In this document: positions 2-55,610 of the stretch, one piece after another
Layout: every line of letters starts with the position of its first letter
How positions within the stretch are numbered: the first letter of the stretch is position 1
IMG/VR virus record: IMGVR_UViG_3300006092_000059
Span: 12,516 to 76,515 of that record
Origin: a virus
Lineage: Duplodnaviria > Heunggongvirae > Uroviricota > Caudoviricetes
DNA: 64,000 nucleotides
Direction: 5' to 3' (one strand)
The notes under the pieces: generated by a model
What the model saw: only the letters and a program-made list of their open reading frames with translations
Database searches by the model: none
What the model was told of the DNA's origin: nothing
Program-made: the position numbers and the translations under genes

Positions 2-535
2 AATAAATATGGATATGATTCTTTTAAATTTTTTATTTTAGAGAAATGTTCTAAAGAAATTCTACAGAATAAGGAGCAATATTATATTGATAATTTTAAA
101 CCTGAATATAACAAAAGAATAATTGCTGATTCAAGTAGAGGATTAAAATATGGCCCACAAAGTATAGAGCATAAATTAAAGACTTCTAGGAAATTAAGAA
201 AATTTTCTGATGAATTAGTAAAAGAAATTAGAAATCTAGCTAATTCTGGAGTTACCTATAAAGAAATAGGTGAGAGATTAAACATTAATCATAATTCTTT
301 ATCTAAATTAGTTAATGGTAGAACATATGTTGATTTACATAAAGGTAATATAAAACCTATAAATAAAAATATAAGATCTAAGCTTACAAAAGAGAAGATA
401 GTAGAAATTTATTATAAAGCTTTAAATAAAGAAAATCAGTATAAGTTAGCTGAGGAGTATAATGTAACACAAGGAACTATTTCTAGAATAAAAAATGCTA
501 AAAGAGACTATTCATGGCTAATTGTAGAATTATAA
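2..535 (+). CDS. GIY-YIG homing endonuclease, C-terminal part (5' end truncated by the window edge)
   Basis: Frame 2 translation reads ...KYGYDSFKFFILEKCSKEILQNKEQYYIDNFKPEYN, the end of a GIY-YIG catalytic domain as in I-TevI. It is followed by an HTH/NUMOD-like segment (GVTYKEIGERLNINHNSLSKLVNGRTY). The stop is at 533-535, overlapping the start of the giant ORF. Confidence 0.55.
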   Translation, partial: NKYGYDSFKFFILEKCSKEILQNKEQYYIDNFKPEYNKRIIADSSRGLKYGPQSIEHKLKTSRKLRKFSDELVKEIRNLANSGVTYKEIGERLNINHNSLSKLVNGRTYVDLHKGNIKPINKNIRSKLTKEKIVEIYYKALNKENQYKLAEEYNVTQGTISRIKNAKRDYSWLIVEL

Positions 536-7079: not shown

Positions 7080-7376
7080 TATAGAGTCTTTAAATCTTTC
7101 TTGTATAGAGGAAGGAAAGGTTGAATAATATTTTGAAAGCCTTTCAAATAAAATATCTAATTGATCTTGAGTAAGATCATTTTCATAAACAGTAAAATAC
7201 TCACATTGTTTTCCCTTTTCACACTTTGTAAATGTGTAAGTTCTTTCATCTTTTCTTCTAATTTTTTCTTGCTCTATTTTCCAATCTTCCATGAATTGAG
7301 CAGTTTTATTTTTATATGGCATACTACTTAGGTTCAAAGTCAAGTCCATGTTCTTTAACATAGTTACATATTTCAA
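7074..7376 (-). CDS. hypothetical protein (start may be the internal Met at 7322, immediately after the SET gene stop: TAGtATG)
   Basis: ORF in the same orientation as its neighbours. Its 5' 50 nt overlaps the upstream gene unless the start at 7322 is used. Confidence 0.4.
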   Translation of the reverse strand: MKYVTMLKNMDLTLNLSSMPYKNKTAQFMEDWKIEQEKIRRKDERTYTFTKCEKGKQCEYFTVYENDLTQDQLDILFERLSKYYSTFPSSIQERFKDSIK

Positions 7377-7704
7377 AATAATTAGAAGTTATTTCTTCTC
7401 CAGCTTTGATATTTTGTTTAGCAAATGTGCCCTCTTTATTGTCATATGTATTAGGAGTAGTAGAATGATTAATATGTCTAGCTTCATCTATACATACTAT
7501 CCATAAATTATTTTCTAGGTAAGCGTATTTATACAAAAATTTTGTTTCTAACTCATTCATTAGTTTCACAGAATCAAGTGAGTATTCTACGTCCATTCCA
7601 GGAGTAAATTCCCAAATCTTAGTATTTTTAGGTATTAAGTTTTTAGCAAATAAACCTATTCCTTTTCCTTGTGATTCTTTTAATTCTATTTCTACTTTTA
7701 ACAT
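7324..7704 (-). CDS. minimal SET-domain protein (putative protein-lysine methyltransferase, vSET-like)
   Basis: GKGIGLFA (GxG AdoMet motif), ARHINHSTTPNT (corresponds to RFINHSCxPN, with Cys replaced by Thr) and GEEITSNY (corresponds to ELTFDY). 126 aa, similar in size to chlorovirus vSET. Confidence 0.6.
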   Translation of the reverse strand: MLKVEIELKESQGKGIGLFAKNLIPKNTKIWEFTPGMDVEYSLDSVKLMNELETKFLYKYAYLENNLWIVCIDEARHINHSTTPNTYDNKEGTFAKQNIKAGEEITSNYFEICNYVKEHGLDFEPK

Positions 7705-12686: not shown

Positions 12687-13144
12687 TAGTCATAAATTGG
12701 AAAAAAGTGACTACAAGTACCAAAAGATGTACCAAATAATTTTTTAATTATAAGATATTCTTCTTCAGTAATTTCTTGTATATTCAAATTACTAAAGTAA
12801 TCTTCCTTGCTATAGAAAGTTAAAGATTCATTAGTACCAAATCCAAGTTCATATTCTTTTCTTCTAAATTTATGATTCCATTTATCTGGTTCTTTTAAAT
12901 ACTGCTCATAGGTAACAATAACACCATGTTTATTTTCCTTTGAAGGATATTCAATATACTTATTATAAGAACTTATTTTATCAAATTGTTCTTCTGTAAC
13001 ATTTCCTACTTCAAAAAAGGTATCTAATATGTCTTCAGTTTTCTTTCTATTCTTAAGATAATCTGTCTCATTACATATTATAAAAGCTTTTACATCAAAT
13101 TCATCAGCGTAATCAGCTGACATCTTAATTAAATAATATTTCAT
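12686..13144 (-). CDS. hypothetical protein (N-terminus paralogous to the 13949..14458 product)
   Basis: MKYYLIKMSADYADEFDVKAFIICNETDYLKNRKK aligns with MKKYYLLTFNEDWADEHYVPALECFTEEDFNKWKK. Confidence 0.4.
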   Translation of the reverse strand: MKYYLIKMSADYADEFDVKAFIICNETDYLKNRKKTEDILDTFFEVGNVTEEQFDKISSYNKYIEYPSKENKHGVIVTYEQYLKEPDKWNHKFRRKEYELGFGTNESLTFYSKEDYFSNLNIQEITEEEYLIIKKLFGTSFGTCSHFFPIYD

Positions 13145-13962
13145 TAAATTAATTCATTTAAAGATTTTATTCGTTTATATCCAACATTATATCGTTGATT
13201 ATGTGGAGTATCATATAAGAAAGTACATATACCTGCTTTATTTAAAGCTATGAAATTATCATAACAATCATCTACAAAGATATCAATCCCACTCTCTTTA
13301 GCCACTTCTACTTTGGATTGTCCACTTCCTACACAATATACAGGTTTTGTTGGAAATCCATGCATATCAAGCCATTTAATTGTAGTTTCAACAGGAATAG
13401 GTCTAGATGTAATATAACAATGAGGTTCAAAAGGAATATCTGTTGGTTTTAACAAAGGTTTTAATCCTAAGTAAAAATCATTAAGAGTTCCTTTTTCTCT
13501 CATAGCATCAAATCTATTTCTAATTTCTCTATCAAAATACCAAGCTGTAGCTACATCTTTAATATTGTGAAGCTCTCTCCATGCATTAATCCAATCACAC
13601 AACACTTCATCAATATCTAAGCCTATTTTAGGTGTTGCTAGATAGTTGTGAGGTCTATCATCTCCTTGTGGATAAATCTTATAATAATCAACTAGGAACA
13701 TTGCATTACACATTACATGAGCTGCATGTAGCAATCCAGTTTCTTTATCAAAATCTTCTCCACTTTCAATAGCAGTAAGATGTCTTTTTAGACTTCCTAT
13801 TACTCTGCTCCATTTCATTCCTTTCCGCCAATTATTATCAGCATATTTAGCTGCTCCGAAGGTTAATACTTTTGCTAATTCATTAATAGCAGTAGGTGAG
13901 AGCAAATCCTGCCTCACCTTACCACTATCAAATCTTAATCCTTTGTCTTCATTCTGTTGCAT
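13144..13962 (-). CDS. bifunctional nucleotide-sanitising enzyme: N-terminal all-alpha dATP/dGTP-diphosphohydrolase-like (MazG-related) domain fused to a HAD 5'(3')-deoxyribonucleotidase
   Basis: N-terminus LRFDSGKVRQDLL ... AAKYADNNWRKGM ... LLHAAHVMCNAMFLVDY matches the phage dNTP-diphosphohydrolase N-domain pattern. The C-terminus has HAD motif I GLDIDEVLCDW, as in NT5C DxDGVL. Confidence 0.5.
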   Translation of the reverse strand: MQQNEDKGLRFDSGKVRQDLLSPTAINELAKVLTFGAAKYADNNWRKGMKWSRVIGSLKRHLTAIESGEDFDKETGLLHAAHVMCNAMFLVDYYKIYPQGDDRPHNYLATPKIGLDIDEVLCDWINAWRELHNIKDVATAWYFDREIRNRFDAMREKGTLNDFYLGLKPLLKPTDIPFEPHCYITSRPIPVETTIKWLDMHGFPTKPVYCVGSGQSKVEVAKESGIDIFVDDCYDNFIALNKAGICTFLYDTPHNQRYNVGYKRIKSLNELI

Positions 13963-24305: not shown

Positions 24306-25982
24306 TTAATACAAACTATCTAGAATTCCATTACTATAAGCAAATTTCTTATCTCCATCAAATTCAATGTTATTTGCGATAACATCTTCTTTCTTGGTAG
24401 CTTCTGCTATTTGCTCTTTTCTATGTCTAATATAACCAATTAAATAATTAGCTACATCTTTTCCTGTAGTATCTTCGAAATCATAATTTCCAAAGTAATC
24501 AGAAAAACCATGTAGAATATCTTCTAATGAAGGTTTTATTTTACGACTAATAATTTCTTTTGTATATCTTTCTGCAAAAGTAACAATTCCTACACAAATA
24601 AACAACCAATTAGATATTTTTGTGAAATTAAAAGTTGGAGTATGTATTCTAAATTCTAAGGTACGATTTGCACTGAATATTAAAGAATTAAAATTTACAA
24701 GATAGTATCTTGTAGGTATGCCCCATTTTTGCCCACCAAGAGGGTGAATAAGAGAGGTCATATTATAAGAGTCATTCATTTCTGGAACTTTCCCATCAGT
24801 TAAAAACTCAAATATTTTATTAAAATTCTTTCTTACATCATTTGAAAATTCGTGCTTAGTATTGTATATCTTTTTGTACAAAGAGTTAGTCATTATTCCT
24901 ATATTAGGAAGTCTTTGATTGTATCTCTTCTGTTTTCTTAAATATTTTACTTCATCTGATTTATATAAAGGAAATATAGAATAAATTTCATCTTGGATAG
25001 TTTGCATTATTATCCAATATGCTAGAATTGTAAGTTCATCATATTTTATATTACCAATATGTATATGCATTGAACATGTAGTATCAAACTCACATTTACT
25101 GTTGAGTTCACCACATATTCTTTTAATAGCTTGTAATCCTTTGTCCCCTTGCATAGGAACTGTTGTATATTCATAAGGCTCTATACCAGAAGCTCTTCTT
25201 AAACTACCATCTTTTAAAGGAACTAATCCTAAAGGCCCTAAAAGCTTTTGTGGAACAGTACCATTACAAGACTCTAGCTCAATACCAAATGTTTTTCCAA
25301 ACAAAAGTTTGCTAAGTTCTGATGTACGCTGATTTGATGGATACACTGTTTTATCATACATATCTTTGATAGTACGAAATGAAGGATTTCCTGCTGATGC
25401 ACTATAATCAAATGGTAGATTTTTATATCTTATAACTCTGGGAGTTACTATACTTTTTAATTCATCTTTATCAAGATTACTTTTTTTGTAGTAGAGGTCA
25501 TTCCATTTACATGGAATATATCCCATTGCTAAAGCTATTTTTTCATTCAGACAGGCTGTTGTTTGGGAAGTATGATATCTTTCAACTGTTTCTACAACTT
25601 CTTCAGTTCTTTTAAAGAAAGCTCTATTTCCTTTAGTGTCAATAAATCCTTCTATAAGATCTTTATTTTGTTGTAATTCTTCTATTAATTCATATTTACC
25701 TGTAGTAAAATTTAAACCAATCTTACCACTTGATAATCTATACCATTCTCCATCAGAAGCATCATCAGAATACCCTATCCAGAAACAGGTTACGCCTTTT
25801 TCATGATATTCTTTATGATTCTTATAATAGATACATTTACTTCTTGGTACAACTTTTCCTTCAACTGTTTTTACCTGTTTTTCCTGAGTAATTTCCATAC
25901 CTTTCTTTTTTTTAGAAGACAATTGCCGTTTCGGAGTTAACTGGATTTTGGCTTTTTTGCTCTTCTTTTGTAATGTGCTCAT
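24306..25982 (-). CDS. amidoligase (COG2170 / YbdK / GCS2-like carboxylate-amine ligase) with a Lys-rich N-terminal tail
   Basis: KTFGIELESCNG matches the YbdK TLGIELE substrate/Mg site. CSMHIHIGN matches YbdK GQHVHVGC. The first 28 codons (KKSKKAKIQ ... KKKKG) overlap the GATase gene by 70 nt; an alternative start is at 25898. Confidence 0.55.
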   Translation of the reverse strand: MSTLQKKSKKAKIQLTPKRQLSSKKKKGMEITQEKQVKTVEGKVVPRSKCIYYKNHKEYHEKGVTCFWIGYSDDASDGEWYRLSSGKIGLNFTTGKYELIEELQQNKDLIEGFIDTKGNRAFFKRTEEVVETVERYHTSQTTACLNEKIALAMGYIPCKWNDLYYKKSNLDKDELKSIVTPRVIRYKNLPFDYSASAGNPSFRTIKDMYDKTVYPSNQRTSELSKLLFGKTFGIELESCNGTVPQKLLGPLGLVPLKDGSLRRASGIEPYEYTTVPMQGDKGLQAIKRICGELNSKCEFDTTCSMHIHIGNIKYDELTILAYWIIMQTIQDEIYSIFPLYKSDEVKYLRKQKRYNQRLPNIGIMTNSLYKKIYNTKHEFSNDVRKNFNKIFEFLTDGKVPEMNDSYNMTSLIHPLGGQKWGIPTRYYLVNFNSLIFSANRTLEFRIHTPTFNFTKISNWLFICVGIVTFAERYTKEIISRKIKPSLEDILHGFSDYFGNYDFEDTTGKDVANYLIGYIRHRKEQIAEATKKEDVIANNIEFDGDKKFAYSNGILDSLY

Positions 25983-27654
25983 CTAGATATAACCAGGCTT
26001 CATCAAGCCATTTTACTAATTTTTTTCTTAAACTTTCTGTAACTGGAAGAATTTCACTAGTTTCAGGATCTTTACTAAAATCCTTATCAGCTAATGCTTC
26101 AGAAGCTTCATTTACTGTATTCATTGCAGCTATATAAACATTTAACATATCTACATCAGAATCAGTAATAGCACTATGCATTACTTCTGCATTTTCTTCT
26201 TCGTCTTCTGTATTATCTGTAAGTTCTAGAGTATTCTGTGATGGTTTAGTATAAGTACATTTCTTAAAGAAACCAGTAGAGAATTCATAAACTTTACCCT
26301 GATTAAATAAAGGAGTAAATTTACCTGTAATATAAGCATCAACACTTCCTCCAATAGTATTATAACCACCTTCTCTTAGGTTGTCAAATAATAAGGTTCT
26401 AGCACTGAATTTTCTTTTAGTAGCAGGATCAAAATTCCAAGAATGTTTAGTTCCTATTTTTCCATCTAATTTACCTTCAGAATATAATTTACAAATATCT
26501 TTTAAATCTTCTTCAGAATTTAATAACCAGCCATTCCAGAAATGATACACTTTACCTGTACCAGAATAATTTTTACTTGAAGGAGCATTTCCATTCTCAT
26601 CTAATAAATAACTAACACCTTCTTTTAGTTTCTGACCAAGTATATGTCCATTTTTATGATATCTACCTTTAACAAACACTACTCTATCATTACCAAAAGG
26701 ATTAAAGAATGGCTCATCTTCAATTAGAAAATCCCCATTATTGTCTCTACGGGTGATTTGATCAGCCTTTTTAACCAACTTTTCTGGGTATCCGATGAAG
26801 ACTTCACTAGCTCTTCTCCTGTTACTGCCGCTAGAAGTTGTAGAACTCCCACTACTGGAACTGCTCGTAGTAGTTCCCTTGCTCTCTCGATTAAATTGTT
26901 TCTTTAATGTTGAAATTTGTCCATCACTTATAATATGGATTTTATTAGGTTCAAAAGCTTTTATACAACCTTCTTTATCATCATCATCACAAATTGCCAT
27001 TAATGATTCTTTAATAGATGAAATATAAACTGCTTTTTCTCCTCTTTTTTTCCAATAAAATAAAGGTCTTTCACCAGTAGAGTCTTCACCTATACTAGAT
27101 TTACCTCTAAATACATACAGTTTATTCTCATCAGTAAAACTCCATAAAAGAGCCGCATAACCTTCATAATCATTAAGTACATTTATATTAGTTTCAGTTG
27201 CTCTACTATCTACTAAGATATTTAAAAGCTCAATACTGTCAACATTATATTTATACTTACTGCCATATTTAGTTCTTAATTCTTCTCTGTTTCTGATAAT
27301 ACCATTATGTGCACCTACAGCATATGGAACTACATTTTTTAATCCTACTTTTTTTCCTTCTTTATGATTTTCTTCTGTATAAAATCCAAATGGGTGAGCA
27401 TTATCTTCAGTATGACTTCCTACTGTAGACTTTCTTGTATGACCTATTACAGTAAAATATTTTTTGATTGGTTTAAGTGAAGTTGCTTCAATAAAATTGA
27501 AAACATTAGCCTTAGCTCCTACCCCTTTTTTTAATAAACCATCCCAGTAAATACCACAACTATCATCACCTCTTCCGAGATTGTACATCCATAAAATTTT
27601 TAATTTGTCAGGATCAGGTGCTGACACACCATTATAACCTACTAATCCGCACAT
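25912..27654 (-). CDS. class II (Ntn) glutamine amidotransferase domain protein with a Ser/Thr-rich linker and an unassigned C-terminal domain
   Basis: N-terminus MCGLVGYNG has the catalytic Cys at position 2, as in PurF/AsnB/GlmS-type amidotransferases. It has an internal SSSSSGSSTTSSGS low-complexity linker and no PP-loop SGGxDS. Confidence 0.7.
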   Translation of the reverse strand: MCGLVGYNGVSAPDPDKLKILWMYNLGRGDDSCGIYWDGLLKKGVGAKANVFNFIEATSLKPIKKYFTVIGHTRKSTVGSHTEDNAHPFGFYTEENHKEGKKVGLKNVVPYAVGAHNGIIRNREELRTKYGSKYKYNVDSIELLNILVDSRATETNINVLNDYEGYAALLWSFTDENKLYVFRGKSSIGEDSTGERPLFYWKKRGEKAVYISSIKESLMAICDDDDKEGCIKAFEPNKIHIISDGQISTLKKQFNRESKGTTTSSSSSGSSTTSSGSNRRRASEVFIGYPEKLVKKADQITRRDNNGDFLIEDEPFFNPFGNDRVVFVKGRYHKNGHILGQKLKEGVSYLLDENGNAPSSKNYSGTGKVYHFWNGWLLNSEEDLKDICKLYSEGKLDGKIGTKHSWNFDPATKRKFSARTLLFDNLREGGYNTIGGSVDAYITGKFTPLFNQGKVYEFSTGFFKKCTYTKPSQNTLELTDNTEDEEENAEVMHSAITDSDVDMLNVYIAAMNTVNEASEALADKDFSKDPETSEILPVTESLRKKLVKWLDEAWLYLDEHITKEEQKSQNPVNSETAIVF

Positions 27655-27657
27655 ATT

Positions 27658-28473
27658 TTAATTTTTTTCTTTTAATGCTATTATTTTTGGAAGTATTTCC
27701 AAGTATTTTTGTTTTAAATAACCACTCATCCATCCAGCTGAGTTAGCTTCTAATAAAGCCCATTTAGGATTTTTTCTGTGTTTGTCATAAGCATTTGTAT
27801 TGCCTTGTAATTTAATATCAAAGCAACAAATATCCATACCTATAACCTTAATAGCTTTCTGACAATCTTCTATAATATCTAACCAATTATCTGGATGCTC
27901 AAAAGCTTCATTTTTCTTTCTGTAATTATCTATATGTACTTCATGGATCCAAATAGAATTTTTATCATTTGGTTTCCAATCTCCATCATCTTTAGCTCTT
28001 ACACGCATCTTTCTTAATCCTGCAATATAACCAAAGTCTTTAGATATATAAATTCTTACTTCTTTTGCATAACCTAAATATTCTTCAAATATATAGGCTT
28101 CACAATTATGCTCTTCAATAAACTTTTCAAAGGCATTAAAATCATCAAGTTTATAAACTCCTAATGATTGTGAAGATGTTCTTCTTTTAGCTATGATAGG
28201 AAAATCCATTTCTGCTACCATAGTAGTAAGTTTCTCAGGATTATCACTCCATCTCCATTCTGAATGCTGTACACCTGCTTTATCAAATGCTTCTTTTGTC
28301 AATTTTTTATCTACACAGGTTTCTATTGCCTTTATAGGATTAATTTCAAAATCACATTTATAAGGAGTACACGAACCAAATCTTATACATCCTTTTCTAG
28401 ATGATTTAAATTGATTCTTTACATAGTCATAACTCTCATGCGTTGACGAGAATATTATTACTGGGTTGCTCAT
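27658..28473 (-). CDS. ATP-grasp ligase (RimK / glutathione-synthetase-like)
   Basis: FPIIAKRRTSSQSLGVYKL ... EAYIFEEYLGYAKEVRIYIS matches the ATP-grasp central domain pattern. Confidence 0.55.
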   Translation of the reverse strand: MSNPVIIFSSTHESYDYVKNQFKSSRKGCIRFGSCTPYKCDFEINPIKAIETCVDKKLTKEAFDKAGVQHSEWRWSDNPEKLTTMVAEMDFPIIAKRRTSSQSLGVYKLDDFNAFEKFIEEHNCEAYIFEEYLGYAKEVRIYISKDFGYIAGLRKMRVRAKDDGDWKPNDKNSIWIHEVHIDNYRKKNEAFEHPDNWLDIIEDCQKAIKVIGMDICCFDIKLQGNTNAYDKHRKNPKWALLEANSAGWMSGYLKQKYLEILPKIIALKEKN

Positions 28474-29086
28474 TTTCTTTTTTAATATTTAAATGTTTCT
28501 TTAATTCTGTAAATAGAGAATCTCTACCTACTTTGTATAAATTTCTGGAGAAAGTAATTAACTTATAAGTACCTTCATATCCCATTGCACCTTTTCTATA
28601 GGTTCTTTCTAATTCTTTAAATTGTGCTTTTTCATAAGCATCAAGATTATTACTATTAGTAGTATCTACTGCTATTAAACCAGTATAACCACTCTTAATT
28701 GCTAAGAATAATGCACAATATAATGTTATTATGTAAGAAATAGATTCAGCATTATGATAAAAACTAGATGTACCAAAATTTCCATAAGCTGCTGTAATTA
28801 TACCTTTTCCACAACAATTGGGAAAGCAACTAAGTGTAAATCTACCAAACTCTCTAGTTTTATTATCTTCTGTATCTATAAAAAGACTAACTATTGAGTT
28901 GATATAAGTTTCACCATTACCAAATTTAGCTAATGTGCTAGTGCCACCATCTTCAGCTGTAAAGGGATTAATTGTAGCTGTTAGCTTTTTACCTGTTATT
29001 TTATTTATTTCTGTTAAAATTTCTGCAAAAAAAGGTACAACACTTTCTGTTAAATGTGTTCCTGCTGTTTTTGTAAGTGTTACCAT
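28436..29086 (-). CDS. hypothetical protein (Gly/Thr-rich, Cys cluster CFPNCCGKG)
   Basis: 216-aa ORF inside the enzymatic cluster. No motif recognised. Confidence 0.4.
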   Translation of the reverse strand: MVTLTKTAGTHLTESVVPFFAEILTEINKITGKKLTATINPFTAEDGGTSTLAKFGNGETYINSIVSLFIDTEDNKTREFGRFTLSCFPNCCGKGIITAAYGNFGTSSFYHNAESISYIITLYCALFLAIKSGYTGLIAVDTTNSNNLDAYEKAQFKELERTYRKGAMGYEGTYKLITFSRNLYKVGRDSLFTELKKHLNIKKENEQPSNNILVNA

Positions 29087-29790
29087 GCTATAGTATAATT
29101 ATTATTGGCTAATAATATCTCATTTACTTTTGAAAAGTGTTTACATCCATAATAAGATCCTCTTGCATTATATAATTCAGTAGCAGGATGTCCTGCTTCA
29201 AGAATAAAATTAGTATGAGAATTAATTAAATGCTTATAAGATTTAGCATGTTTTCCCCATAAACAATAAATTATTCCTGTATGATATAAGCTTAATTCTC
29301 TAATAATAAATGATGTAAAAGGTCTCCACAGATCTAAATGTGCATCAGCATTCCATTCTTCTGTAGTAAGTGCTGAATTTAACAATAATACACCTTGTTT
29401 GGCCCATCTTGTTAAATCAGTATCCATATTAATTAATTCACCATTAAAAACATCATTTTCAAGTTCATTTCTTATAACTTTTAAACTTTCAGGTACATGT
29501 AAATCATTTTCACCCTTTTGGTATGAAAAAGCTAATCCATGACCTTCAGGTTTACCATTAACTATATGATAATATGGAGATTGTCCTAATATTACTACTC
29601 TTACATCATCCCAAGGAGTATATTTAAATGCATTAAACATATCTACTTGATTTGGAAGTATTCTTTTTTCTGCTTTTCTTTTAGTTAAATAAGATAAAAT
29701 TTTTTGACCTTCATCTAGTTCTAGAAATGGAGCTATTTTTTCAAGCCATTTCTTTTCTATATAAGGTTCTAATTTTTCTTTGTAGTTCAT
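29080..29790 (-). CDS. uracil-DNA glycosylase family 1 (UNG) fold protein with substituted catalytic residues
   Basis: Extended colinear similarity to UNG: GQSPYY (UNG GQDPYH), GLAFSY (GLCFSV), WAKQGVLLLNSALT (identical to the UNG WAKQGVLLLNAVLT core), HPATELY (HPSPLS), GCKHFSKVNEIL (GCRHFSKTNELL), IAW (IDW). The water-activating Asp is Ser and the following His is Tyr. Confidence 0.75.
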   Translation of the reverse strand: MNYKEKLEPYIEKKWLEKIAPFLELDEGQKILSYLTKRKAEKRILPNQVDMFNAFKYTPWDDVRVVILGQSPYYHIVNGKPEGHGLAFSYQKGENDLHVPESLKVIRNELENDVFNGELINMDTDLTRWAKQGVLLLNSALTTEEWNADAHLDLWRPFTSFIIRELSLYHTGIIYCLWGKHAKSYKHLINSHTNFILEAGHPATELYNARGSYYGCKHFSKVNEILLANNNYTIAW

Positions 29791-30053
29791 ATAAATTCTT
29801 CTACTGCTTTATCAGTTGCACTGTTTAGAGCATCTACTCTTCTACAATACACAGGATTTGAATTAAATGTTTTACTACCTTCCTTGTTACTTAAAGTATA
29901 CCAATACATTCCTGGTGTTATTCTAGATTCAAATACACTCAAATTAACTCCTTTATCAGCAATTAACCAAGTTCTTAATACTGAGTAAAATAAACCAGTT
30001 TTTATTTCAGGGAGTTTGAATCCTTTTTCTAATGCTGATTTTAATACACTCAT
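29787..30053 (-). CDS. hypothetical protein
   Basis: 88-aa ORF. Confidence 0.35.
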   Translation of the reverse strand: MSVLKSALEKGFKLPEIKTGLFYSVLRTWLIADKGVNLSVFESRITPGMYWYTLSNKEGSKTFNSNPVYCRRVDALNSATDKAVEEFI

Positions 30054-30054
30054 A

Positions 30055-30423
30055 TTAATATTTTTTTCTGTAATCTGAATAGTCTCCTGATTCTACTACT
30101 GTTCCGTGTCCATTACAATAATATAACCAAGCTTCTCTTGTCACACCATCATCTCCATCTATTTTAGTAAGTTCTCTTTTATAGAATCTTGGATGCCCTT
30201 CAAGACCATCCAATCTACTAAGAGTAACATCATCTACTTCATAAACTTCAACTGTAATTTTACTTACTTCTTGTGTTCTTGAAACATATGGAATTCCAGC
30301 TGCATGCATTACCATTTTATCAGCTGTTTTACCAGTTGTAATTAATGGGCTACTTGTTAACAATCTGTTATTTCCATACCCTTTTCTTAATGTACCATAC
30401 ACTGATACTAAATGTTTACTCAT
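30055..30423 (-). CDS. gamma-glutamyl cyclotransferase (AIG2/GGCT-like)
   Basis: N-terminal VSVYGTLRKGYGNNRLL matches the GGCT YGSL ... G motif. 122 aa. Confidence 0.55.
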   Translation of the reverse strand: MSKHLVSVYGTLRKGYGNNRLLTSSPLITTGKTADKMVMHAAGIPYVSRTQEVSKITVEVYEVDDVTLSRLDGLEGHPRFYKRELTKIDGDDGVTREAWLYYCNGHGTVVESGDYSDYRKKY

Positions 30424-42930: not shown

Positions 42931-43749
42931 TCATTTGTAGACTGTTGCAACAGGTACTGGAAGAGATTCTAAGTTATATTTTTTGATAAGAGAAGCAGCA
43001 GCGGAATAATCAGAATTGTTAATAGTACTAATTATTATTTCTGCTAAGTTACTCCCATTTTCAATTTCCCCATGTTCCTTTACAAATTCTACAGCTCTTA
43101 GAGTGTTATCCCATACCCATTTAATAAGAGTGTCATCAAAAATCCAGAAATTACTCAAAACTCTATACTCAAATCTGTTTTGTTTGAGTTTTTCTCTGTA
43201 ATCTCCAGCTTTTCCATAAAGGTCTCTTCTATATAAGTCTGTATCCATTAAAATACTAGGAACTGCTAAGTGTAAATCAAGAGCTTTAACTACAGCTAAC
43301 ATATTTCTACCATCTATTGAATCAAATTCAAGATGTATATGCCCACCACAACTTCTTAATGTACCATCAGGAGATGGTCTTTCCATTTGCTCACCTTTTC
43401 TCCAAGCATCAAAAGATGGTTCACAACCAAATTCAGTTGCTTTAACATCTACTAGTTCTTCATAAGGAAAATGAGCAGATGCTTCTGTTCCTATATCATA
43501 AGAGTCTGGAATAATATTTTTCAGGTATTTCAAACCATAACGGATATTATTGGTGAATTCTTGCAAATCACTAGCTGGTGGTACATTGAATTCTACAGCA
43601 ACATTGTCATGTAGAAATGCAAAGCCATCCTTATCCATTGGCATTGGTTTTTCTTTTGTTCCCATTCCTACAATAGGAATAGAAGATTTGAATTTGTCTC
43701 CTTCTTTGAGAAAAAATTCTGGGTCTGTTCCAAATTTTGTTATCTTCAT
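42931..43749 (-). CDS. second amidoligase-like protein (COG2170/YbdK-like)
   Basis: N-terminus KFGTDPEFFLKEG (corresponds to GIELEF) and SCGGHIHLEFD (corresponds to the YbdK HVHVG motif). Confidence 0.45.
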   Translation of the reverse strand: MKITKFGTDPEFFLKEGDKFKSSIPIVGMGTKEKPMPMDKDGFAFLHDNVAVEFNVPPASDLQEFTNNIRYGLKYLKNIIPDSYDIGTEASAHFPYEELVDVKATEFGCEPSFDAWRKGEQMERPSPDGTLRSCGGHIHLEFDSIDGRNMLAVVKALDLHLAVPSILMDTDLYRRDLYGKAGDYREKLKQNRFEYRVLSNFWIFDDTLIKWVWDNTLRAVEFVKEHGEIENGSNLAEIIISTINNSDYSAAASLIKKYNLESLPVPVATVYK

Positions 43750-43950: not shown

Positions 43951-44427
43951 CTATTCTTTTACTTGCCAGTCAATTTTAGGACAATATTTACCTTTAAAAG
44001 ATTTCCAACCTTCTCCTATAATATCTGAGGTTTCAGATAAATTACGTGATACTGAACTCTGTGGAAATACTTCTTTAAAGTAATAAACGATTAATAATAT
44101 TACCACTGATACTGCTAATATAATTAACAATGGCCCAAGAATTGCCCAGAATCCATGTTTTACAGTAGTACCAATAAATACTCCTGCAAGTGAAAGAACT
44201 GCATAAGCCATCAATGTATTAACAATATTTCTTCCAAATGCTCCTGTTTCTCCACTTATTCCTTTATAGATAAGCCCAATCCAAGTAATAGGTAACATTA
44301 GGGTTGCCCATACTAATGCCCAGAAATAATCACAGAAATTTTCATTTGGTTCATCATTTCCAAACCATCCTGCATAATTAAGTTTCCAGAATTTATAATG
44401 CCACGAGTTGTTTTTTGTAAGTTTCAT
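43951..44427 (-). CDS. integral membrane protein
   Basis: 158 aa with ~4 predicted TM helices, immediately downstream of the NAMPT gene. Confidence 0.4.
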   Translation of the reverse strand: MKLTKNNSWHYKFWKLNYAGWFGNDEPNENFCDYFWALVWATLMLPITWIGLIYKGISGETGAFGRNIVNTLMAYAVLSLAGVFIGTTVKHGFWAILGPLLIILAVSVVILLIVYYFKEVFPQSSVSRNLSETSDIIGEGWKSFKGKYCPKIDWQVKE

Positions 44428-46057
44428 TTACTTGTTGTTTAATTTTGATTAAAGTTGTTTGATTGAAAAATTCTCCATTTCTGTAGATAGTTTTTAATTC
44501 ATTTTCTTCTGAGTTATATTTTTCCTCAGAAACTCCTGATTCACAGATATACTCTCCATCTACAAGGGAGATAAACTGAAATCCTTTTAATGATTTCTTA
44601 GTTCCATTATCTGTAATAGGATCTTTATAAATATCATATTCTTCTCTTACTCCTTCTACAAATGTTTCAAACCAGCAACCTTTAGCTGCAAATCCAGCAC
44701 TGTCACGAGTTAACATTACATAAGTGTAAGAGCCTATTCCTAATACAATATTAGTAGCAGCAAAACCTTTATCAGCAAGTCTGCTATACATAGCTACTTG
44801 ACGCTCAAGATTAATACTATCACCATAGATAGCACCAATATGTGAATCAAGAACTTTATATCCTTCATCACTAACAGTACCACCAAAAATATCCCAAAGT
44901 AGTTCTGCTACTCCTTTTGATTCTATTTGTGTAGTTGTATCATTATTTGAAATTCTTATCCATTTGTTTCTCATCTCAACTGCCTCAAATCCACAAATAA
45001 TATCTACAGGATCACCAGAATCAGGTCTTAATACTAATTTTCCTTCTCTTTCAAGGATTTCTTTCTTGAGCCTTGGTATAATATGAGTACAGGATTTCCA
45101 TGTATTCATAGTATCACATACATAAGATAAAATTCCTTTAGGGAATTTCTTTAGCCAATCTCTTAACATTAACCATTCTGCAATAGTTAAATAATCAGGA
45201 TTCTCTATAGAGCCTTCACATGGAGCATCAAATGAATAGTATTCTTTTATACTTTCATCTAACAATCCTTGTTTAAGTTTTCTTTCATAATAGAAAATAT
45301 TAGTACAGCTTACTGAATGTTCCGAAGCATTTACTGAGAAGATAGGTACTTCCTCTTCATCAAAATCATAATAATATCTTGATGCAGGAATTACATTCAA
45401 TGTATCACTTCCTGAATTACAAATAGCATGTCCTAATCCTACTGCAATAGAAGTATAAGGATTACCTCCTCTTGAGTGAAAATCATGACACATAAAATCA
45501 GCAAACCACAGATTTTTTGAATCTGTTTTAGTTACCCATTCTACTGCATTTTCTTTAAATTTAGCCCCAATAGTAGCAGCTGTGGGCATTTGCCATGCTA
45601 ACTTACTTACTAAAGTTTCTAAAAATAACCCAAGCCATGAATATCCATCTACTGTATTAATACCTGTCATATGAGGTATATTTGGTTGTGTAAACACACC
45701 CTCAGTAAGTGATTTAACATCTACAGGTAAATATCCTAAATTGTGTAATTGTTTGAAATGATCTCCATTATATTCAATCATAAGATATTTTGACATATCT
45801 TTAGCAAATTTCTCAGCTACTTCAATAGGTTTATTGAAGAAAAACTCTTGAAATGCACTATGGATATATCTCCAAGTTAACTGCTGACCAGCACTCATCA
45901 ATTTTTTAATAGATGGATGCATATTTTTAAGACTTCGTGGAATCCAATTCCAACCTTCTCTGCTAACATTTGGTGCTAACATAGAATGATGTCCTACTTT
46001 ATAGCCATCAGCCTCATAAAGAGGATTTAGTTTAAACGTCTGTTTTAATTTGTTCAT
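44393..46057 (-). CDS. nadV: nicotinamide phosphoribosyltransferase (NAMPT/NadV)
   Basis: LYEADGYKVGHH (NAMPT LLATDSYKVTHY), HDFHSRGG (HDFGYRG), LVLRPDSGDPVDI (LIIRPDSGNPLDTV), AIYGDSINL (IQGDGVDINTL). Confidence 0.85.
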   Translation of the reverse strand: MNKLKQTFKLNPLYEADGYKVGHHSMLAPNVSREGWNWIPRSLKNMHPSIKKLMSAGQQLTWRYIHSAFQEFFFNKPIEVAEKFAKDMSKYLMIEYNGDHFKQLHNLGYLPVDVKSLTEGVFTQPNIPHMTGINTVDGYSWLGLFLETLVSKLAWQMPTAATIGAKFKENAVEWVTKTDSKNLWFADFMCHDFHSRGGNPYTSIAVGLGHAICNSGSDTLNVIPASRYYYDFDEEEVPIFSVNASEHSVSCTNIFYYERKLKQGLLDESIKEYYSFDAPCEGSIENPDYLTIAEWLMLRDWLKKFPKGILSYVCDTMNTWKSCTHIIPRLKKEILEREGKLVLRPDSGDPVDIICGFEAVEMRNKWIRISNNDTTTQIESKGVAELLWDIFGGTVSDEGYKVLDSHIGAIYGDSINLERQVAMYSRLADKGFAATNIVLGIGSYTYVMLTRDSAGFAAKGCWFETFVEGVREEYDIYKDPITDNGTKKSLKGFQFISLVDGEYICESGVSEEKYNSEENELKTIYRNGEFFNQTTLIKIKQQVNETYKKQLVAL

Positions 46058-46875
46058 TTTAATTTTACTTCAATTAATCTGTCATTAACAAATCTTTGTT
46101 GTCTTGCAAAAGTTACATCCCCAAAGTTCAAGAATATATCTTCTTTACCTAAAAAGCTATTAGTAAAATAGATTTTTTCTAGATTTTGTTCTAGTTTACT
46201 AAATCCTTTACTAAATATTGCATGAGTTACACACAAATAAACTCTTTGAGCACCACGTATTTTAAGCTGTTTAGAACATTCTATAAATGTACCACCTCCA
46301 TCACAGAGATCATCTACAATTATACAATCTTTTTCAATTTTAGCTTCTAATGGTATTTCAATTGTATCTACTTGTCCTTTTACTCGTGTCTTATTACATT
46401 TTACTATATTAGTACTGCCTAATTCTTCTTCTATCCAAGCACCAGCACCTTTATCAGGAGCTATTATTGAATAATTAAGTAAAGAATTGTCAATAATACA
46501 TTGTTGTACTAAATCTGCAGTGACAGTAATTTCTTTACTTTTATTTATTAGTTCAAGACTTTTCTTTGAATGAGGTTTTAATATTTCTACTTCCTCAAAT
46601 TCTAATAAATTGATAAATCTTGCAACTAAATAAAGATCAGCAAATTCTCCTTCACTGAACTGTCTGTCACATCTAGCAGCTAATAAGTAATTAATTCTTA
46701 ATTTTCTTAATTTAGGACATATTCCTTTCAACTGGGCTAATAAAAATAAATCATCAAAAGATCTTAGTGATACACAAATTTCTTCTAAATCTTTAAATCC
46801 ATCTTCTTCTTTTAGAATTAAATGTTGATGCCCATCTGGAAAGTATGCTACATTAAGCTGTGATAAATTCCTCAT
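46054..46875 (-). CDS. ribose-phosphate pyrophosphokinase-like type I PRTase-fold protein (likely PRPP supply for NAMPT)
   Basis: PRPP-loop CIIVDDLCDGGGTF and IIAPDKGAGAW (Prs VVSPDAGG). Its stop overlaps the nadV start. Confidence 0.5.
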   Translation of the reverse strand: MRNLSQLNVAYFPDGHQHLILKEEDGFKDLEEICVSLRSFDDLFLLAQLKGICPKLRKLRINYLLAARCDRQFSEGEFADLYLVARFINLLEFEEVEILKPHSKKSLELINKSKEITVTADLVQQCIIDNSLLNYSIIAPDKGAGAWIEEELGSTNIVKCNKTRVKGQVDTIEIPLEAKIEKDCIIVDDLCDGGGTFIECSKQLKIRGAQRVYLCVTHAIFSKGFSKLEQNLEKIYFTNSFLGKEDIFLNFGDVTFARQQRFVNDRLIEVKLK

Positions 46876-48352: not shown

Positions 48353-48445
48353 TGTTCTGTGTCATTAAATATTTTCTAGATTTACCTAGAATTAATACAT
48401 GAATTGTTTTTGTTCTCTTTAATTTAATCATAAATTCAATTTAGT

Positions 48446-48520
48446 GGTTCCTACAGGATTTGAACCTGTGACCTTGACATTATGAGTGTCCTGCTCTAAC
48501 CAGACTGAGCTAAGAAACCT
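48446..48520 (-). tRNA. tRNA-Met (anticodon CAT; could be an Ile-lysidine type)
   Basis: Reverse complement GGTTTCT-TA-GCTC ... GAGC ... anticodon loop CTCATAA ... T arm ACAGG-TTCAAAT-CCTGT ... acceptor AGGAACC. Cloverleaf by hand. Confidence 0.7.
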
Positions 48521-48524
48521 TTGT

Positions 48525-48721
48525 ATACCTGGATGGAATCGAACCAACTCACTCTATTACGTAACCTTGTGATGTATTCTGATATTTTTGAAAAGTTACC
48601 TCTTCGTTGAATATACTCTAACATGGAAGGTGTAATAATCCCCCCGTTTCATACTCTTGTAAGAATATAAAGCGTGGGGAGATTACATAAAAATAGGCTT
48701 TGCCACTAAGCTACAGGTATG
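48525..48721 (-). tRNA. tRNA-like gene apparently split by a ~126-nt insertion (intron-containing tRNA, disrupted tRNA or pseudogene); anticodon unresolved
   Basis: The 5' half at 48721 downward reads ATACCTG-TA-GCTT-AGTGGCA-AAGC-C-TATTT(TT). The 3' half at ~48563-48525 reads ...AATAG-AGTGA-GTTGG-TTCGATT-CCATC-CAGGTAT-A. The acceptor halves ATACCTG/CAGGTAT are perfectly complementary, and D and T arms are present. The intervening sequence holds a 10-bp hairpin (TAATCTCCCC ... GGGGGGATTA). Confidence 0.4.
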
Positions 48722-48765
48722 CAGTGTTTTTTCCGCAATAGGAGAGACCACTAAACTCATTATCT

Positions 48766-49065
48766 TTATTCCCTCATGATATAAAAGTCCTCACTGTCTT
48801 TACTAATCTTAAGAAGTAAATTTCTTACTCCAACAGATATAACAGCGTGTTCTGTATCATCAAAAGAGGCATAATAGTATCTACCAGATGGTATATACAT
48901 TGTAAAATAACATGGGACATCTACATCTAAATGATCTGGACATTTTAATTTGATTAAGAGTACATGACATGCAGTATCTTCTACTTCATTAATCAAAAAA
49001 CCAGGTTTAGCATGAATTCTTAATTCATAATCATCCTGTGCAAATTTTCTTTCTCTTACAACCAC
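48766..49065 (-). CDS. hypothetical protein
   Basis: 99-aa ORF. Confidence 0.35.
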   Translation of the reverse strand: MVVRERKFAQDDYELRIHAKPGFLINEVEDTACHVLLIKLKCPDHLDVDVPCYFTMYIPSGRYYYASFDDTEHAVISVGVRNLLLKISKDSEDFYIMRE

Positions 49066-51920: not shown

Positions 51921-52394
51921 TTATTTGTATTTCTTGTTTCTTCCTCTAAAGTTTCTTGTCTGAGAATGACAATTAGGACAAAGTAGTTGTAGATTAGTAA
52001 AGGTATGATCATTACTAATACCGTTAATATGATCTAATTCTAGAACAATTACTGAATCATTCCATTCACATATTCCACAACATTTACATTTATACTCTAA
52101 TAATCCTTCTCGTAATAATCTCTTTTTTAGATGATTTATACTTATAAATAAACTATCCTTTACTAGAATATCTTCTAATTTAATATCTTTTTTAAATTTT
52201 CTAAATCTACTTCCTTGATTCCAAGCTTTTCCAGTAAAATGTGACGTATCTATATTAAATTCCTTTATCTTAAAATTTAAAGTTCGATAGTTACCTCCTA
52301 CAGGTTTAATGTTTAATTTTCTACATACATCTGCTATTGATAAACTTTCTTTAATGGTATTTTCTAATTCTTCTTTTGTAAATTTGTATTTCAT
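51921..52394 (-). CDS. HNH homing endonuclease
   Basis: CKCCGICEW ... LELDHINGISNDHTFTNLQLLCPNCHSQT. Confidence 0.65.
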   Translation of the reverse strand: MKYKFTKEELENTIKESLSIADVCRKLNIKPVGGNYRTLNFKIKEFNIDTSHFTGKAWNQGSRFRKFKKDIKLEDILVKDSLFISINHLKKRLLREGLLEYKCKCCGICEWNDSVIVLELDHINGISNDHTFTNLQLLCPNCHSQTRNFRGRNKKYK

Positions 52395-54804: not shown

Positions 54805-55269
54805 ATGAATATAGATTACATTTCTGGATTCTTTGATGCTGATGGCTCTATCACTATGTCATATAGCTCTAAGAAAGATACTTTTAGGACTATAAAAATA
54901 GACTTTACTAATAATGAAAAAGATATTTTAATATCTATTCAAAAATTTTTATTAGAAAATTATAGTATTAAAGCTTATATAACTTCTAAGGAAATTAAAA
55001 AAGCTAATCATAATAAAGCTTATGCTTTATCTGTGTCAAGCAATCAAATGTGTTATGAATTATGTAAAATTTTAAAATCAATACATCCTAAAAAACTACA
55101 TAGGATTAATACAATTTTAAAATATCATAATATTGTAACAAAAAGAAATGGAAAATATAATTATAAACAAACTATGAGAAAATTGGCTTATGAAAGACTA
55201 TTTTTCTCCTCACTTTTTCAAGTAAGATCGGACTATATCATCATCCCCACAAGGGGAGTAGGAAGCTAA
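54805..55269 (+). CDS. LAGLIDADG homing endonuclease (single-motif, I-CreI-like size)
   Basis: ISGFFDADGS is the LAGLIDADG motif at residues 6-15. 154 aa. It is the only + strand gene in a long - strand block. Confidence 0.75.
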   Translation: MNIDYISGFFDADGSITMSYSSKKDTFRTIKIDFTNNEKDILISIQKFLLENYSIKAYITSKEIKKANHNKAYALSVSSNQMCYELCKILKSIHPKKLHRINTILKYHNIVTKRNGKYNYKQTMRKLAYERLFFSSLFQVRSDYIIIPTRGVGS

Positions 55270-55385
55270 ATCTGGTTATTAAGAACACTTTAGTTCTCCA
55301 GTAGTCTCTGAACCTTTACAAAATGTATTTTGTACTTGGCTGCTGATTGGCATAGATTTTTCCTTAGCTTTCCAGCAATTCATCC
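55225..55385 (-). ncRNA. group I intron catalytic core (P, Q, R, S elements) on the - strand; the total extent, probably ~55150-55520, and the host gene are unresolved
   Basis: On the - strand, in the correct order and spacing: P AATTGCTGGAAA (consensus AATTGCGGGAAA; + strand coordinates 55369-55380). Q AATCAGCAGC (AATCCGCAGC; 55339-55348). R TTCAGAGACTAC (TCAGAGACTACA; 55301-55312). S ATGATATAGTCC (AAGATATAGTCC; 55230-55241). Hairpins lie between R and S (AGAAC ... GTTCT, TCCCC ... GGGGA). Confidence 0.55.
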
Positions 55386-55610
55386 TATTTTTACATTAGT
55401 GTTGCCACTAAGTCAACCCTTTGAGTTGAACCCTCGTATTCTCTACAGGTATTTAGAAAATTTATTTATAAGCTTAGGCATATTTTAAGAAAATAGCCAA
55501 AATTAGGGCTGATCAGAATTGCTTCTAATTCAGAGTCCACCATTGTATTTTGTTGAAAACACAAAAAACTGCGCTATTTACCCAATAGCAGGTTAGTAGT
55601 CTTCTGTTCC

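What the first reader, a model, noticed from the sequence alone, without database searches (positions are those of the whole stretch)
48525..48721. tRNA-like gene whose two halves are separated by ~126 nt
A canonical tRNA-Met lies immediately downstream at 48446..48520. Next to it, a second tRNA-like gene has a 5' half (acceptor ATACCTG, D arm GCTT/AAGC) and a 3' half (T arm with TTCGATT loop, acceptor CAGGTAT) whose acceptor strands are perfectly complementary. The halves are separated by 126 nt that fold into a long hairpin. The insert is too short for a typical group I intron. It could be a small self-splicing or host-processed intron, a tRNA disrupted by insertion, or a decaying gene. Exact anticodon-stem boundaries could not be resolved by eye.
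Basis: seen in the sequence. Interest (0 to 1): 0.55.

Follow-up and report, generated by a model that had tools for sequence, protein, structure and literature searches.

The report
Phage tRNA gene split by insert
A virus of bacteria carries a transfer-RNA gene cut in two, exactly in its anticodon loop, by a 126-base folded insert that matches no known intron type; if cells remove it, this would be the first intron in a phage tRNA, but a DNA-insertion scar suggests the gene may simply be broken.

Summary
It lies on the minus strand, at 48720..48524. ARAGORN in default mode and the Rfam tRNA model both miss it. ARAGORN in intron mode calls tRNA-Ile(UAU) with a 126-nt insert after position 36. 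The same search gave no calls in 9.6 Mb of composition-matched random sequence. With the insert removed, the tRNA scores like the phage's other seven tRNAs.

The insert is not one hairpin. It is H1 (52 nt, about 22 bp, z -6.4), then UAC, then H2 (68 nt, GUAA-capped), then UAC. It folds better on the tRNA-sense strand.

The insert is not a group I or group II intron, not a BHB intron and not a known small ribozyme. I found no homologue in any collection searched. Related phages carry the neighbouring tRNA-Met alone.

The junctions carry a 9-nt imperfect direct repeat, TTATGTAAT / TTACGTAAT. Because of it, the splice register, and so the anticodon (UAU or UAC), is ambiguous. The repeat looks like a DNA-level insertion scar.

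My best reading (about 0.5) is an ordinary phage tRNA gene interrupted by a recently acquired structured module, with the transcript probably left unspliced. The main rival (about 0.3) is a genuine intron of a new kind. There is only one sequence, so no covariation test was possible.

The parts
48687..48720 (-). tRNA 5' exon: acceptor ATACCTG, TA, D arm GCTT/AGTGGCA/AAGC, anticodon stem CTATT and loop TTTAT. The candidate anticodon TAT is at 48689-48687.
   Evidence: Read from the sequence. ARAGORN intron mode. Bracket structure.
48561..48686 (-). 126-nt insert, using ARAGORN's register GTAATC...GGTTAC. The register can slide within the 9-nt repeat.
   Evidence: MFE -35.2 kcal/mol with z -5.7 on the sense strand; -31.2 with z -3.05 on the antisense strand. 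GC 35.7%, against 29.6% for the window.
48635..48686 (-). Hairpin H1: 52 nt, about 22 bp including 3 G.U pairs, with a CCCC:GGGG clamp and a UACA loop.
   Evidence: -23.4 kcal/mol, z -6.35. It is the third most stable 56-nt hairpin on this strand of the window.
48564..48631 (-). Hairpin H2: 68 nt, with closing stem ACCUU/AAGGU, GA-rich 6x6 internal loop and an apical 6-bp stem capped by a GUAA tetraloop.
   Evidence: -11.1 kcal/mol, z -2.2.
48524..48560 (-). tRNA 3' exon: GT, anticodon stem AATAG, variable loop AGTGA, T arm GTTGG/TTCGATT/CCATC, acceptor CAGGTAT and discriminator A.
   Evidence: Read from the sequence. ARAGORN.
48682..48690 (-). 5' copy of the junction repeat, TTATGTAAT.
   Evidence: Read from the sequence. 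Pairing test.
48556..48564 (-). 3' copy of the junction repeat, TTACGTAAT. Its core TTACGTAA is a perfect palindrome.
   Evidence: Read from the sequence. Pairing test.
48444..48519 (-). Canonical tRNA-Met(CAU), 4 nt downstream. It is probably co-transcribed with the split gene.
   Evidence: ARAGORN. Rfam tRNA, 66.6 bits.

Best explanation
This is an ordinary phage tRNA gene, either tRNA-Ile(UAU) or tRNA-Val(UAC). Such a tRNA would fit this phage's set of tRNAs for A-ending codons.

Its anticodon loop was interrupted at the DNA level by a foreign 126-bp segment. The segment was probably captured by microhomology or staggered-break repair, which left the 9-nt imperfect direct repeat TTAYGTAAT at both junctions.

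The locus is probably transcribed together with tRNA-Met and trimmed at its ends like a tRNA (RNase P at the 5' end, 3' trimming, then CCA addition). The result would be a tRNA-shaped RNA of about 200 nt. Its acceptor, D and T arms are intact, but its anticodon stem opens into a three-way junction carrying two hairpins, H1 and H2.

I think this RNA most likely stays unspliced and therefore does not decode. Within this reading there are two outcomes:
- an inert, recently broken gene (about 60% of this reading);
- a structured RNA stabilised by a natural tRNA scaffold (about 40% of this reading).

Shown here: the tRNA halves, the insert anatomy, the repeat, the lack of any known intron signature and the absence from relatives. 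Inferred: co-transcription, end processing, lack of splicing and the insertion mechanism.
For: 1. The halves are a real tRNA. ARAGORN intron mode calls it, with 0 calls in 9.6 Mb of simulated sequence. The joined exons score like the other seven tRNAs.

2. No known splicing machinery fits.
- The Rfam scan of 48400-48800 at E<=10 gives no group I, group II or small-ribozyme hit.
- The phage's real group I intron scores 88 bits.
- The insert has no significant similarity to that intron.
- No bulge-helix-bulge motif can be drawn at any register, by hand on the structure.
- No RNA ligase, RtcB or PNK was found among the 60 window ORFs I scanned, nearly all of those >=120 aa.

3. An 8/9 direct repeat sits exactly at both junctions. 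This is a DNA-insertion signature. No intron class is known to need it.

4. The gene is lineage-specific.
- PolA relatives L018 and L031 keep tRNA-Met with no split tRNA upstream.
- Homologues of the 179-aa neighbour lack tRNAs.
- The insert has no second copy and no homologue. I checked the window, the fetched loci, a covariance model over 0.68 Mb, INPHARED and exact-word scans of IMG/VR, JGI and GTDB.

5. The genome is rich in mobile DNA. It holds HNH and LAGLIDADG ORFs and a group I intron inside the tRNA region.

6. There is precedent for unspliced tRNA-like stable RNAs in a phage tRNA cluster. T4 rnaC has a T arm and paired ends, and its function is unknown (PMC3014915).
Against: - The exons show no decay.
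- The insert sits in the anticodon loop, the place where all known tRNA introns sit.
- Removing the insert restores a 5-bp stem and a 7-nt loop with U33.
- The insert is an autonomous, strongly folded module that leaves the cloverleaf intact.
- It folds better on the sense strand, with 4 G.U pairs and 0 A.C pairs. It is also more GC-rich than the genome. Together these suggest selection at the RNA level.
- No terminal inverted repeats and no extra copies were found, so a transposon origin is unsupported.
- AUA makes up 41% of Ile codons and GUA 55% of Val codons, so the phage would benefit from this tRNA.
- There is only one sequence, so neither loss of function nor conservation can be shown.
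Confidence: 0.5

Rival explanations
1. The insert is a genuine intron of a new kind. It would be removed from the pre-tRNA to give a working tRNA-Ile(UAU) or tRNA-Val(UAC). The palindromic junction repeats (UUAY|GUAA) would pair with each other and place the two splice sites opposite one another. Cutting and joining would then be done either by a symmetric endonuclease plus an RtcB- or Rnl-type ligase from host or phage, or by a new small ribozyme built from H1 and H2.
For: - The insert is in the anticodon loop, and the exons are intact with a full ARAGORN score.
- The insert is a self-contained fold that does not disturb the cloverleaf.
- Structure is biased to the sense strand, and GC is raised.
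- The 8-nt junction cores can pair: 8 bp with the enforced structure at -45.7 kcal/mol, against -46.6 for the cloverleaf form, and about 0.14 probability in the ensemble.
- H2 ends in a GNRA (GUAA) loop, and H1 has a CC:GG run of the kind such loops dock on. The docking rule is recalled from memory and was not tested.
- Demand for AUA and GUA codons is high.
- Other tRNAs of this phage share its oddities, such as no N26, G37 and a 50:64 mismatch.
Against: - No known bacterial pathway splices a non-group-I tRNA intron.
- No ribozyme family matches.
- No ligase or endonuclease candidate appears among the 60 window ORFs scanned.
- The mature loop would be UUUAYGU, with an unusual G37 and U38.
- The direct repeat is explained more simply as an insertion scar.
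- There are no homologues, so there is no covariation.
Confidence: 0.3
2. The insert is a very small or degenerate group I intron that self-splices. The 5' splice site would follow U32 and the omega-G would be the last G of AAGG, giving tRNA-Val(UAC).
For: - Group I is the only common tRNA intron type in bacteria (PMC13011429, PMC3984707).
- The same phage carries an active-looking group I intron.
- One register does give a U before the 5' site and a G at the 3' end of the insert (sequence).
Against: - At 126 nt it is far below the roughly 200-nt minimum of known natural group I introns (recalled from memory).
- Rfam RF00028 gives nothing at E<=10.
- The fold is two simple hairpins with no P3-P9 core.
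- It has no similarity to the phage's own group I intron.
Confidence: 0.04
3. The split is a chance resemblance or an assembly chimera that joins two unrelated tRNA fragments.
For: Default tRNA finders and Rfam do not call it.
Against: - There were 0 intron-mode calls in 9.6 Mb of simulated sequence.
- The 7-bp acceptor is perfectly complementary, and all conserved tertiary nucleotides are present.
- An identical sequence appears in an independent Logan assembly.
Confidence: 0.02

Closest known systems
Bacterial tRNA genes with group I introns in the anticodon loop (for example Azoarcus tRNA-Ile at 36/37, cyanobacterial tRNA-Leu(UAA), Patescibacteria tRNA-Asn and tRNA-Asp at 35/36)
   Same: A bacterial-type tRNA gene is interrupted in the anticodon loop. 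ARAGORN's register, 36/37, is one used by known group I introns (recalled from memory). The gene is missed by standard tRNA finders, as reported for Patescibacteria (PMC13011429).
   Different: The insert has no group I core, is only 126 nt long and gets no Rfam hit. It lies in a phage. A 2014 review states that all phage introns known then were in protein-coding genes (PMC3984707).
Phage T4 species 1 RNA (rnaC) and species 2 RNA (rnaD)
   Same: These are stable RNAs encoded inside a phage tRNA cluster and are longer than a tRNA. rnaC has a canonical T arm and paired 5' and 3' ends. Their function is unknown (PMC3014915).
   Different: There is no significant sequence similarity. In rnaC the extra part is mainly a 5' extension on a class-II-like body, not an insertion in the anticodon loop. 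The present RNA keeps a complete D arm and anticodon stem.
Engineered 'tRNA scaffold' RNAs (a structured RNA grafted onto the anticodon stem to stabilise it in bacteria; recalled from memory, Ponchon and Dardel)
   Same: The topology is the same: an intact acceptor, D and T body with a foreign structured RNA carried on the anticodon stem.
   Different: The scaffold is a laboratory construct. No natural phage example is known to me, and I have no evidence that the insert has a function.
Archaeal and eukaryal protein-spliced tRNA introns (BHB motif, EndA plus RtcB)
   Same: They are inserts in the anticodon loop that are not ribozymes. The pre-tRNA keeps the mature domain folded. Some archaeal tRNA introns are about 100 nt long.
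   Different: No bulge-helix-bulge motif can be formed at any register (by hand). The genome looks like a bacterial tailed phage: PolA, DnaB, primase, and a tRNA-Met 96.6% identical over 58 nt to that of Bacteroides phages. Bacteria are not known to have EndA.
MITE or IS insertions with target-site duplication
   Same: A short non-coding, hairpin-rich insert is bracketed by a 9-bp (8/9) direct repeat.
   Different: There are no terminal inverted repeats, and no second copy in the window, in flanking contigs or in any database searched.

Membership tests
Canonical tRNA gene | A contiguous cloverleaf recognised by standard tRNA models | tested here: not met
   ARAGORN in default mode and Rfam RF00005 give no call at 48524-48720.
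Canonical tRNA gene | After removal of the insert: a 7-bp acceptor, a D arm with G18 G19, a T arm with a TTCGA loop, and a 5-bp anticodon stem with a 7-nt loop and U33 | tested here: met
   ARAGORN intron mode. The joined exons pass at 115% of the threshold. Bracket structure. Deviations: no N26, a U50.U64 mismatch, and G37 U38.
Group I intron | A conserved P3-P9 catalytic core (match to Rfam RF00028) | tested here: not met
   No hit at E<=10 on 401 nt. The positive control in the same window scores 88 bits.
Group I intron | A U (paired with G) before the 5' splice site and a G as the last intron base | tested here: inconclusive
   This is possible only in the registers after U31 or U32, ending ...AAG or ...AAGG (sequence). 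No convincing internal guide sequence was found.
Group II intron | A domain V/VI match (Rfam) and GUGYG...AY boundaries | tested here: not met
   No Rfam hit. The boundaries are GUAAU...AC, so only the 3' AY fits.
BHB (archaeal/eukaryal) tRNA intron | Two 3-nt bulges separated by a 4-bp helix at the splice sites | tested here: not met
   I checked all registers by hand against the constrained fold. The central helix cannot form.
Small self-cleaving ribozymes (hammerhead, twister, twister-sister, pistol, hatchet, HDV-like, hairpin) | A match to the family covariance model | tested here: not met
   None listed at E<=10.
Transposable element / MITE | Target-site duplication | tested here: met
   TTATGTAAT at 48690-48682 and TTACGTAAT at 48564-48556, matching at 8 of 9 positions.
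Transposable element / MITE | Terminal inverted repeats and multiple copies | tested here: not met
   I found no terminal inverted repeats by eye. There is no other copy in the window or in the loci and databases searched.
tmRNA | A tRNA-like domain with G3.U70 plus a tag ORF; an ARAGORN tmRNA call | tested here: not met
   ARAGORN -m at an 80% threshold finds nothing. The acceptor has A3-U70.
T4 rnaC-like stable tRNA-like RNA | Sequence homology to T4 rnaC | tested here: not met
   The local alignment score was reached by 15 of 300 shuffles and is driven by the T loop.
T4 rnaC-like stable tRNA-like RNA | Accumulates as a stable unspliced RNA | not testable with these tools
   This needs RNA data from infected cells.

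The most novel reading that the evidence does not exclude
This would be the first intron in a bacteriophage tRNA gene, and of a new class. It would be a 126-nt two-hairpin element whose palindromic junction repeats (UUAY|GUAA) pair to line up the two splice sites. It would be excised and the exons joined either by a symmetric endonuclease plus an RNA ligase or by a previously unknown small ribozyme, yielding a functional tRNA-Ile(UAU) or tRNA-Val(UAC).
Probability: 0.28. Interest if true: 0.85.

Novelty: new variant of a known kind. Interest (0 to 1): 0.45.

Why it matters
In bacteria and their phages, tRNA introns are essentially all self-splicing group I ribozymes. A 2014 review found no intron in any phage tRNA gene.

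If this insert is removed from the RNA, it would reveal a new splicing route in the bacterial world, either protein-assisted or through a new ribozyme. It would also show that standard tRNA finders under-count phage tRNAs.

If the insert is not removed but the RNA is stable, it would be a natural version of the 'tRNA scaffold' trick for stabilising a structured RNA.

If it is just a broken gene, it is a snapshot of how illegitimate insertion remodels phage tRNA clusters. That outcome is ordinary.

Tried and rejected
**Known RNA families**
- Rfam at gathering thresholds and at E<=10 gave only noise for the insert.
- ARAGORN tmRNA mode found nothing.

**Relatives and homologues**
- The 120-aa and 99-aa flanking ORFs have no relatives in IMG/VR or in the 5.8-billion-protein set.
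- NAMPT relatives show no synteny.
- PolA relatives carry tRNA-Met alone.
- Homologues of the 179-aa neighbour have no tRNAs nearby.
- The 377-aa ORF belongs to a widespread domain family and has no close relatives.
- Exact-word and gapped DNA scans of IMG/VR, JGI metagenomes and GTDB genomes gave only chance hits or adjacent-tRNA false positives.
- BLAST of the locus, the joined tRNA and the insert against INPHARED found nothing.
- A covariance model of the anticodon stem plus insert found only itself in 0.68 Mb.

**Link to the group I intron at 55.4 kb**
- The insert has no similarity to that intron.
- The intron's GUAAAAAUAGG pairs with the last 11 nt of the tRNA 5' exon, with a U.G pair at the splice site. 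It looked like a guide sequence. By homology with related introns it is J2/3 plus P3, so I rejected this as coincidence.
- A brute-force join of every U/G splice pair around that intron produced no hidden tRNA.

**Other ideas**
- I tested whether the insert is a decayed 3' half, spacer and 5' half left from two tandem tRNAs. I saw no similarity by eye beyond the repeat.
- I looked for a hairpin family shared with other strong hairpins of the window. There is no shared sequence.
- I tried to extend the genome to look for RNA ligases. This gave only about 12 kb more on one side.

Full report
**1. What is there**

The window is an AT-rich (29.6% GC) tailed-phage genome. Nearly all genes are on the minus strand. 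They include a family-A DNA polymerase, a DnaB-like helicase, a primase, ribonucleotide reductase, NAMPT and a PRPP-synthetase-like gene. It has no close relative in INPHARED. The only near-identical pieces are tRNAs, for example tRNA-Met at 96.6% over 58 nt to Bacteroides phages DAC19-23.

ARAGORN and Rfam find seven tRNAs, all on the minus strand: Met, His, Leu-UAA, Gln-UUG, Trp, Lys-UUU and Arg-UCU. Rfam also finds one group I intron at 55209-55435.

**2. Checking the observation**

Read on the minus strand, the finding is exactly as described. The parts are ATACCTG-TA-GCTT-AGTGGCA-AAGC-CTATT, then the insert, then AATAG-AGTGA-GTTGG-TTCGATT-CCATC-CAGGTAT-A. It spans 48720..48524 and ends 4 nt before tRNA-Met (48519-48444).

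- Default ARAGORN and the Rfam tRNA model do not call it, even at E<=10.
- ARAGORN in intron mode calls tRNA-Ile(tat) with a 126-nt intron, in the form tttat-intron-gtaat.
- As a chance control, the same intron-mode search made no call of any kind on 150 first-order Markov simulations of the window, 9.6 Mb in total.
- With the insert removed, the tRNA passes ARAGORN up to 115% of its threshold. Most of the phage's other tRNAs do the same.
- Its oddities are no nucleotide 26, a U50.U64 mismatch and G37. The phage's tRNA-Gln, tRNA-Trp and tRNA-His share similar oddities.
- The identical sequence is present in an independent Logan assembly.

It is a real tRNA-derived gene, not a chance resemblance and not an assembly artefact.

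**3. Anatomy of the insert**

With the cloverleaf enforced, the anticodon stem CUAUU/AAUAG closes a three-way junction. The order is UUUAU, then H1, then UAC, then H2, then UACGU.

- H1 (48686-48635) is a 52-nt hairpin of about 22 bp with a CCCC:GGGG clamp and three G.U pairs. Its energy is -23.4 kcal/mol, z -6.35.
- H2 (48631-48564) is weaker, at -11.1 kcal/mol and z -2.2. It has GA-rich 6x6 internal loop and a GUAA-capped tip.
- The whole insert folds to -35.2 kcal/mol (z -5.7) on the tRNA-sense strand, against -31.2 (z -3.05) on the other strand.
- Its GC content is 35.7%, against 29.6% for the window and 19.8% for the neighbouring spacer.

These facts lean towards structure that matters at the RNA level. 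As a caution, H1 is only the third most stable 56-nt hairpin on this strand of the window.

**4. The junction repeat**

The two junctions carry a 9-nt direct repeat that matches at 8 of 9 positions. The copies are TTATGTAAT (48690-48682) and TTACGTAAT (48564-48556).

This has two consequences.

First, the splice register cannot be fixed. Any cut at equivalent points in the two copies restores a 7-nt loop. The anticodon is UAU (Ile) if the join is 3' of the mismatch and UAC (Val) if it is 5' of it. Both AUA (41% of Ile codons) and GUA (55% of Val codons) are heavily used. Either tRNA would fit the phage's set of tRNAs for A-ending codons.

Second, a short direct repeat bracketing an insert is the classical mark of a DNA-level insertion, either a target duplication or microhomology at both junctions. 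No known intron class needs it.

The core TTAYGTAA is also a palindrome. On the RNA, the two junctions could therefore pair over 8 bp with the two candidate splice sites facing each other. This structure is energetically competitive: -45.7 kcal/mol, against -46.6 for the cloverleaf form, with about 0.14 probability in the ensemble. Nothing shows that it is actually used.

**5. What the insert is not**

- It is not a group I intron, a group II intron or any Rfam ribozyme. The positive control, the intron at 55.4 kb, scores 88 bits.
- It is not similar to that intron.
- It has no bulge-helix-bulge motif in any register (by hand).
- It is not a tmRNA.
- It is not a repeated element. I found no second copy in the window, in about 0.6 Mb of fetched loci or with a covariance model over 0.68 Mb. 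BLAST against INPHARED and exact-word or gapped scans of IMG/VR, JGI metagenomes and GTDB genomes also gave no real match.
- No RNA ligase, RtcB, PNK or obvious endoribonuclease appears among the 60 window ORFs I scanned, nearly all of those >=120 aa. The genome is incomplete here.

**6. Relatives**

- The flanking 120-aa protein has no homologue at all in 5.8 billion proteins.
- Phages with 61% identical PolA (L018, L031) keep a tRNA-Met at the syntenic place, with a protein-coding gene and no split tRNA upstream.
- Homologues of the 179-aa neighbour sit in tRNA-free contexts.

The split gene is therefore lineage-specific, and no covariation test is possible.

**7. Interpretation**

My best reading is a normal phage tRNA gene that was interrupted, fairly recently, by a foreign structured 126-bp segment. 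I think the transcript probably stays unspliced (confidence about 0.5).

It would still have everything RNase P and the 3'-end enzymes need. A roughly 200-nt tRNA-shaped RNA is therefore the likely product. It may be inert, or it may be a structured RNA carried on a natural tRNA scaffold.

The nearest precedent is T4 rnaC. That RNA lies in the T4 tRNA cluster, has a T arm and paired ends, and is stable with unknown function (PMC3014915). It shows no sequence homology to this locus.

The main rival is a genuine intron of a new kind (about 0.3). The points in its favour are the anticodon-loop position, the undamaged exons, the autonomous sense-strand fold, the palindromic junctions and the codon demand. 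If true, it would be the first tRNA intron in a phage. A 2014 review states that all phage introns known then were in protein genes (PMC3984707). My literature searches found no later report.

A miniature group I intron is very unlikely (about 0.04).

**8. Verdict**

The feature is real and unusual, and it is of unresolved function. It is worth one cheap experiment: searching reads for the joined exons. On present evidence it is more likely an insertion-disrupted tRNA than a new splicing system.

Noticed in passing
window 54805-55452 (intron 55209-55435, minus strand; LAGLIDADG ORF 54805-55269, plus strand): A full-length group I intron (Rfam, 88 bits) sits in apparently non-coding DNA. No minus-strand ORF runs into it, and no hidden tRNA appears when every U/G splice pair is joined. 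A LAGLIDADG endonuclease ORF lies on the opposite strand and overlaps the intron's 3' end. Its host gene is unknown. Homologous introns sit in RNR and psbA genes of other phages.
   Followed up: partly
window 55452-55443 and 55412-55402 (minus strand), compared with 48720-48700: Nucleotides 1-10 (ATACCTGTAG) and 11-21 (CTTAGTGGCAA) of the split tRNA recur, in the same order and 30 nt apart, just upstream of and inside the 5' part of the group I intron. Part of the second match (GTGGCAAC) is a conserved P2 GNRA hairpin of that intron family. The rest is unexplained.
   Followed up: partly
window 51921-52394 (minus strand): An HNH endonuclease ORF is embedded in the tRNA cluster between tRNA-His and tRNA-Leu/tRNA-Gln. 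This recalls segB in the T4 tRNA cluster.
   Followed up: no
window 44393-46875 (minus strand): An NAD-salvage pair, NAMPT (554 aa) plus a PRPP-synthetase-like protein (273 aa), lies 1.6 kb downstream of the tRNA pair. Relatives at 58-68% NAMPT identity show no synteny with this window.
   Followed up: partly
window 13144-13962, 24306-30423 and 42931-43749 (minus strand): This is a cluster of enzyme genes: amidoligase, two glutamine-amidotransferase-like proteins, an ATP-grasp protein, a gamma-glutamyl cyclotransferase-like protein, a phiEco32-type COOH-NH2 ligase and a dATP/dGTP diphosphohydrolase. It suggests a nucleotide or DNA hypermodification system, or a peptide-ligation system.
   Followed up: no
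window 514-6663 (plus strand) and beyond the window start (L051 19360-20861): A 2049-aa 'polyvalent' protein with an ADP-ribosyltransferase domain lies on the plus strand. Just outside the window it is preceded by a GIY-YIG protein and a 4097-aa giant protein. A SET-domain protein is at 7324-7704.
   Followed up: no
L019, L020, L026 and L027 (PolA relatives): In these contigs the PolA match spans 2.6-2.7 kb instead of 1.9 kb. This suggests an intron or intein inside the polymerase gene of related phages.
   Followed up: no
window 13932-13877, 14680-14625, 19108-19053 and 36620-36565 (minus strand): Several other very stable hairpins of about 50 nt (-23 to -26 kcal/mol) lie on the coding strand, some in intergenic gaps. 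They share no sequence with H1.
   Followed up: partly
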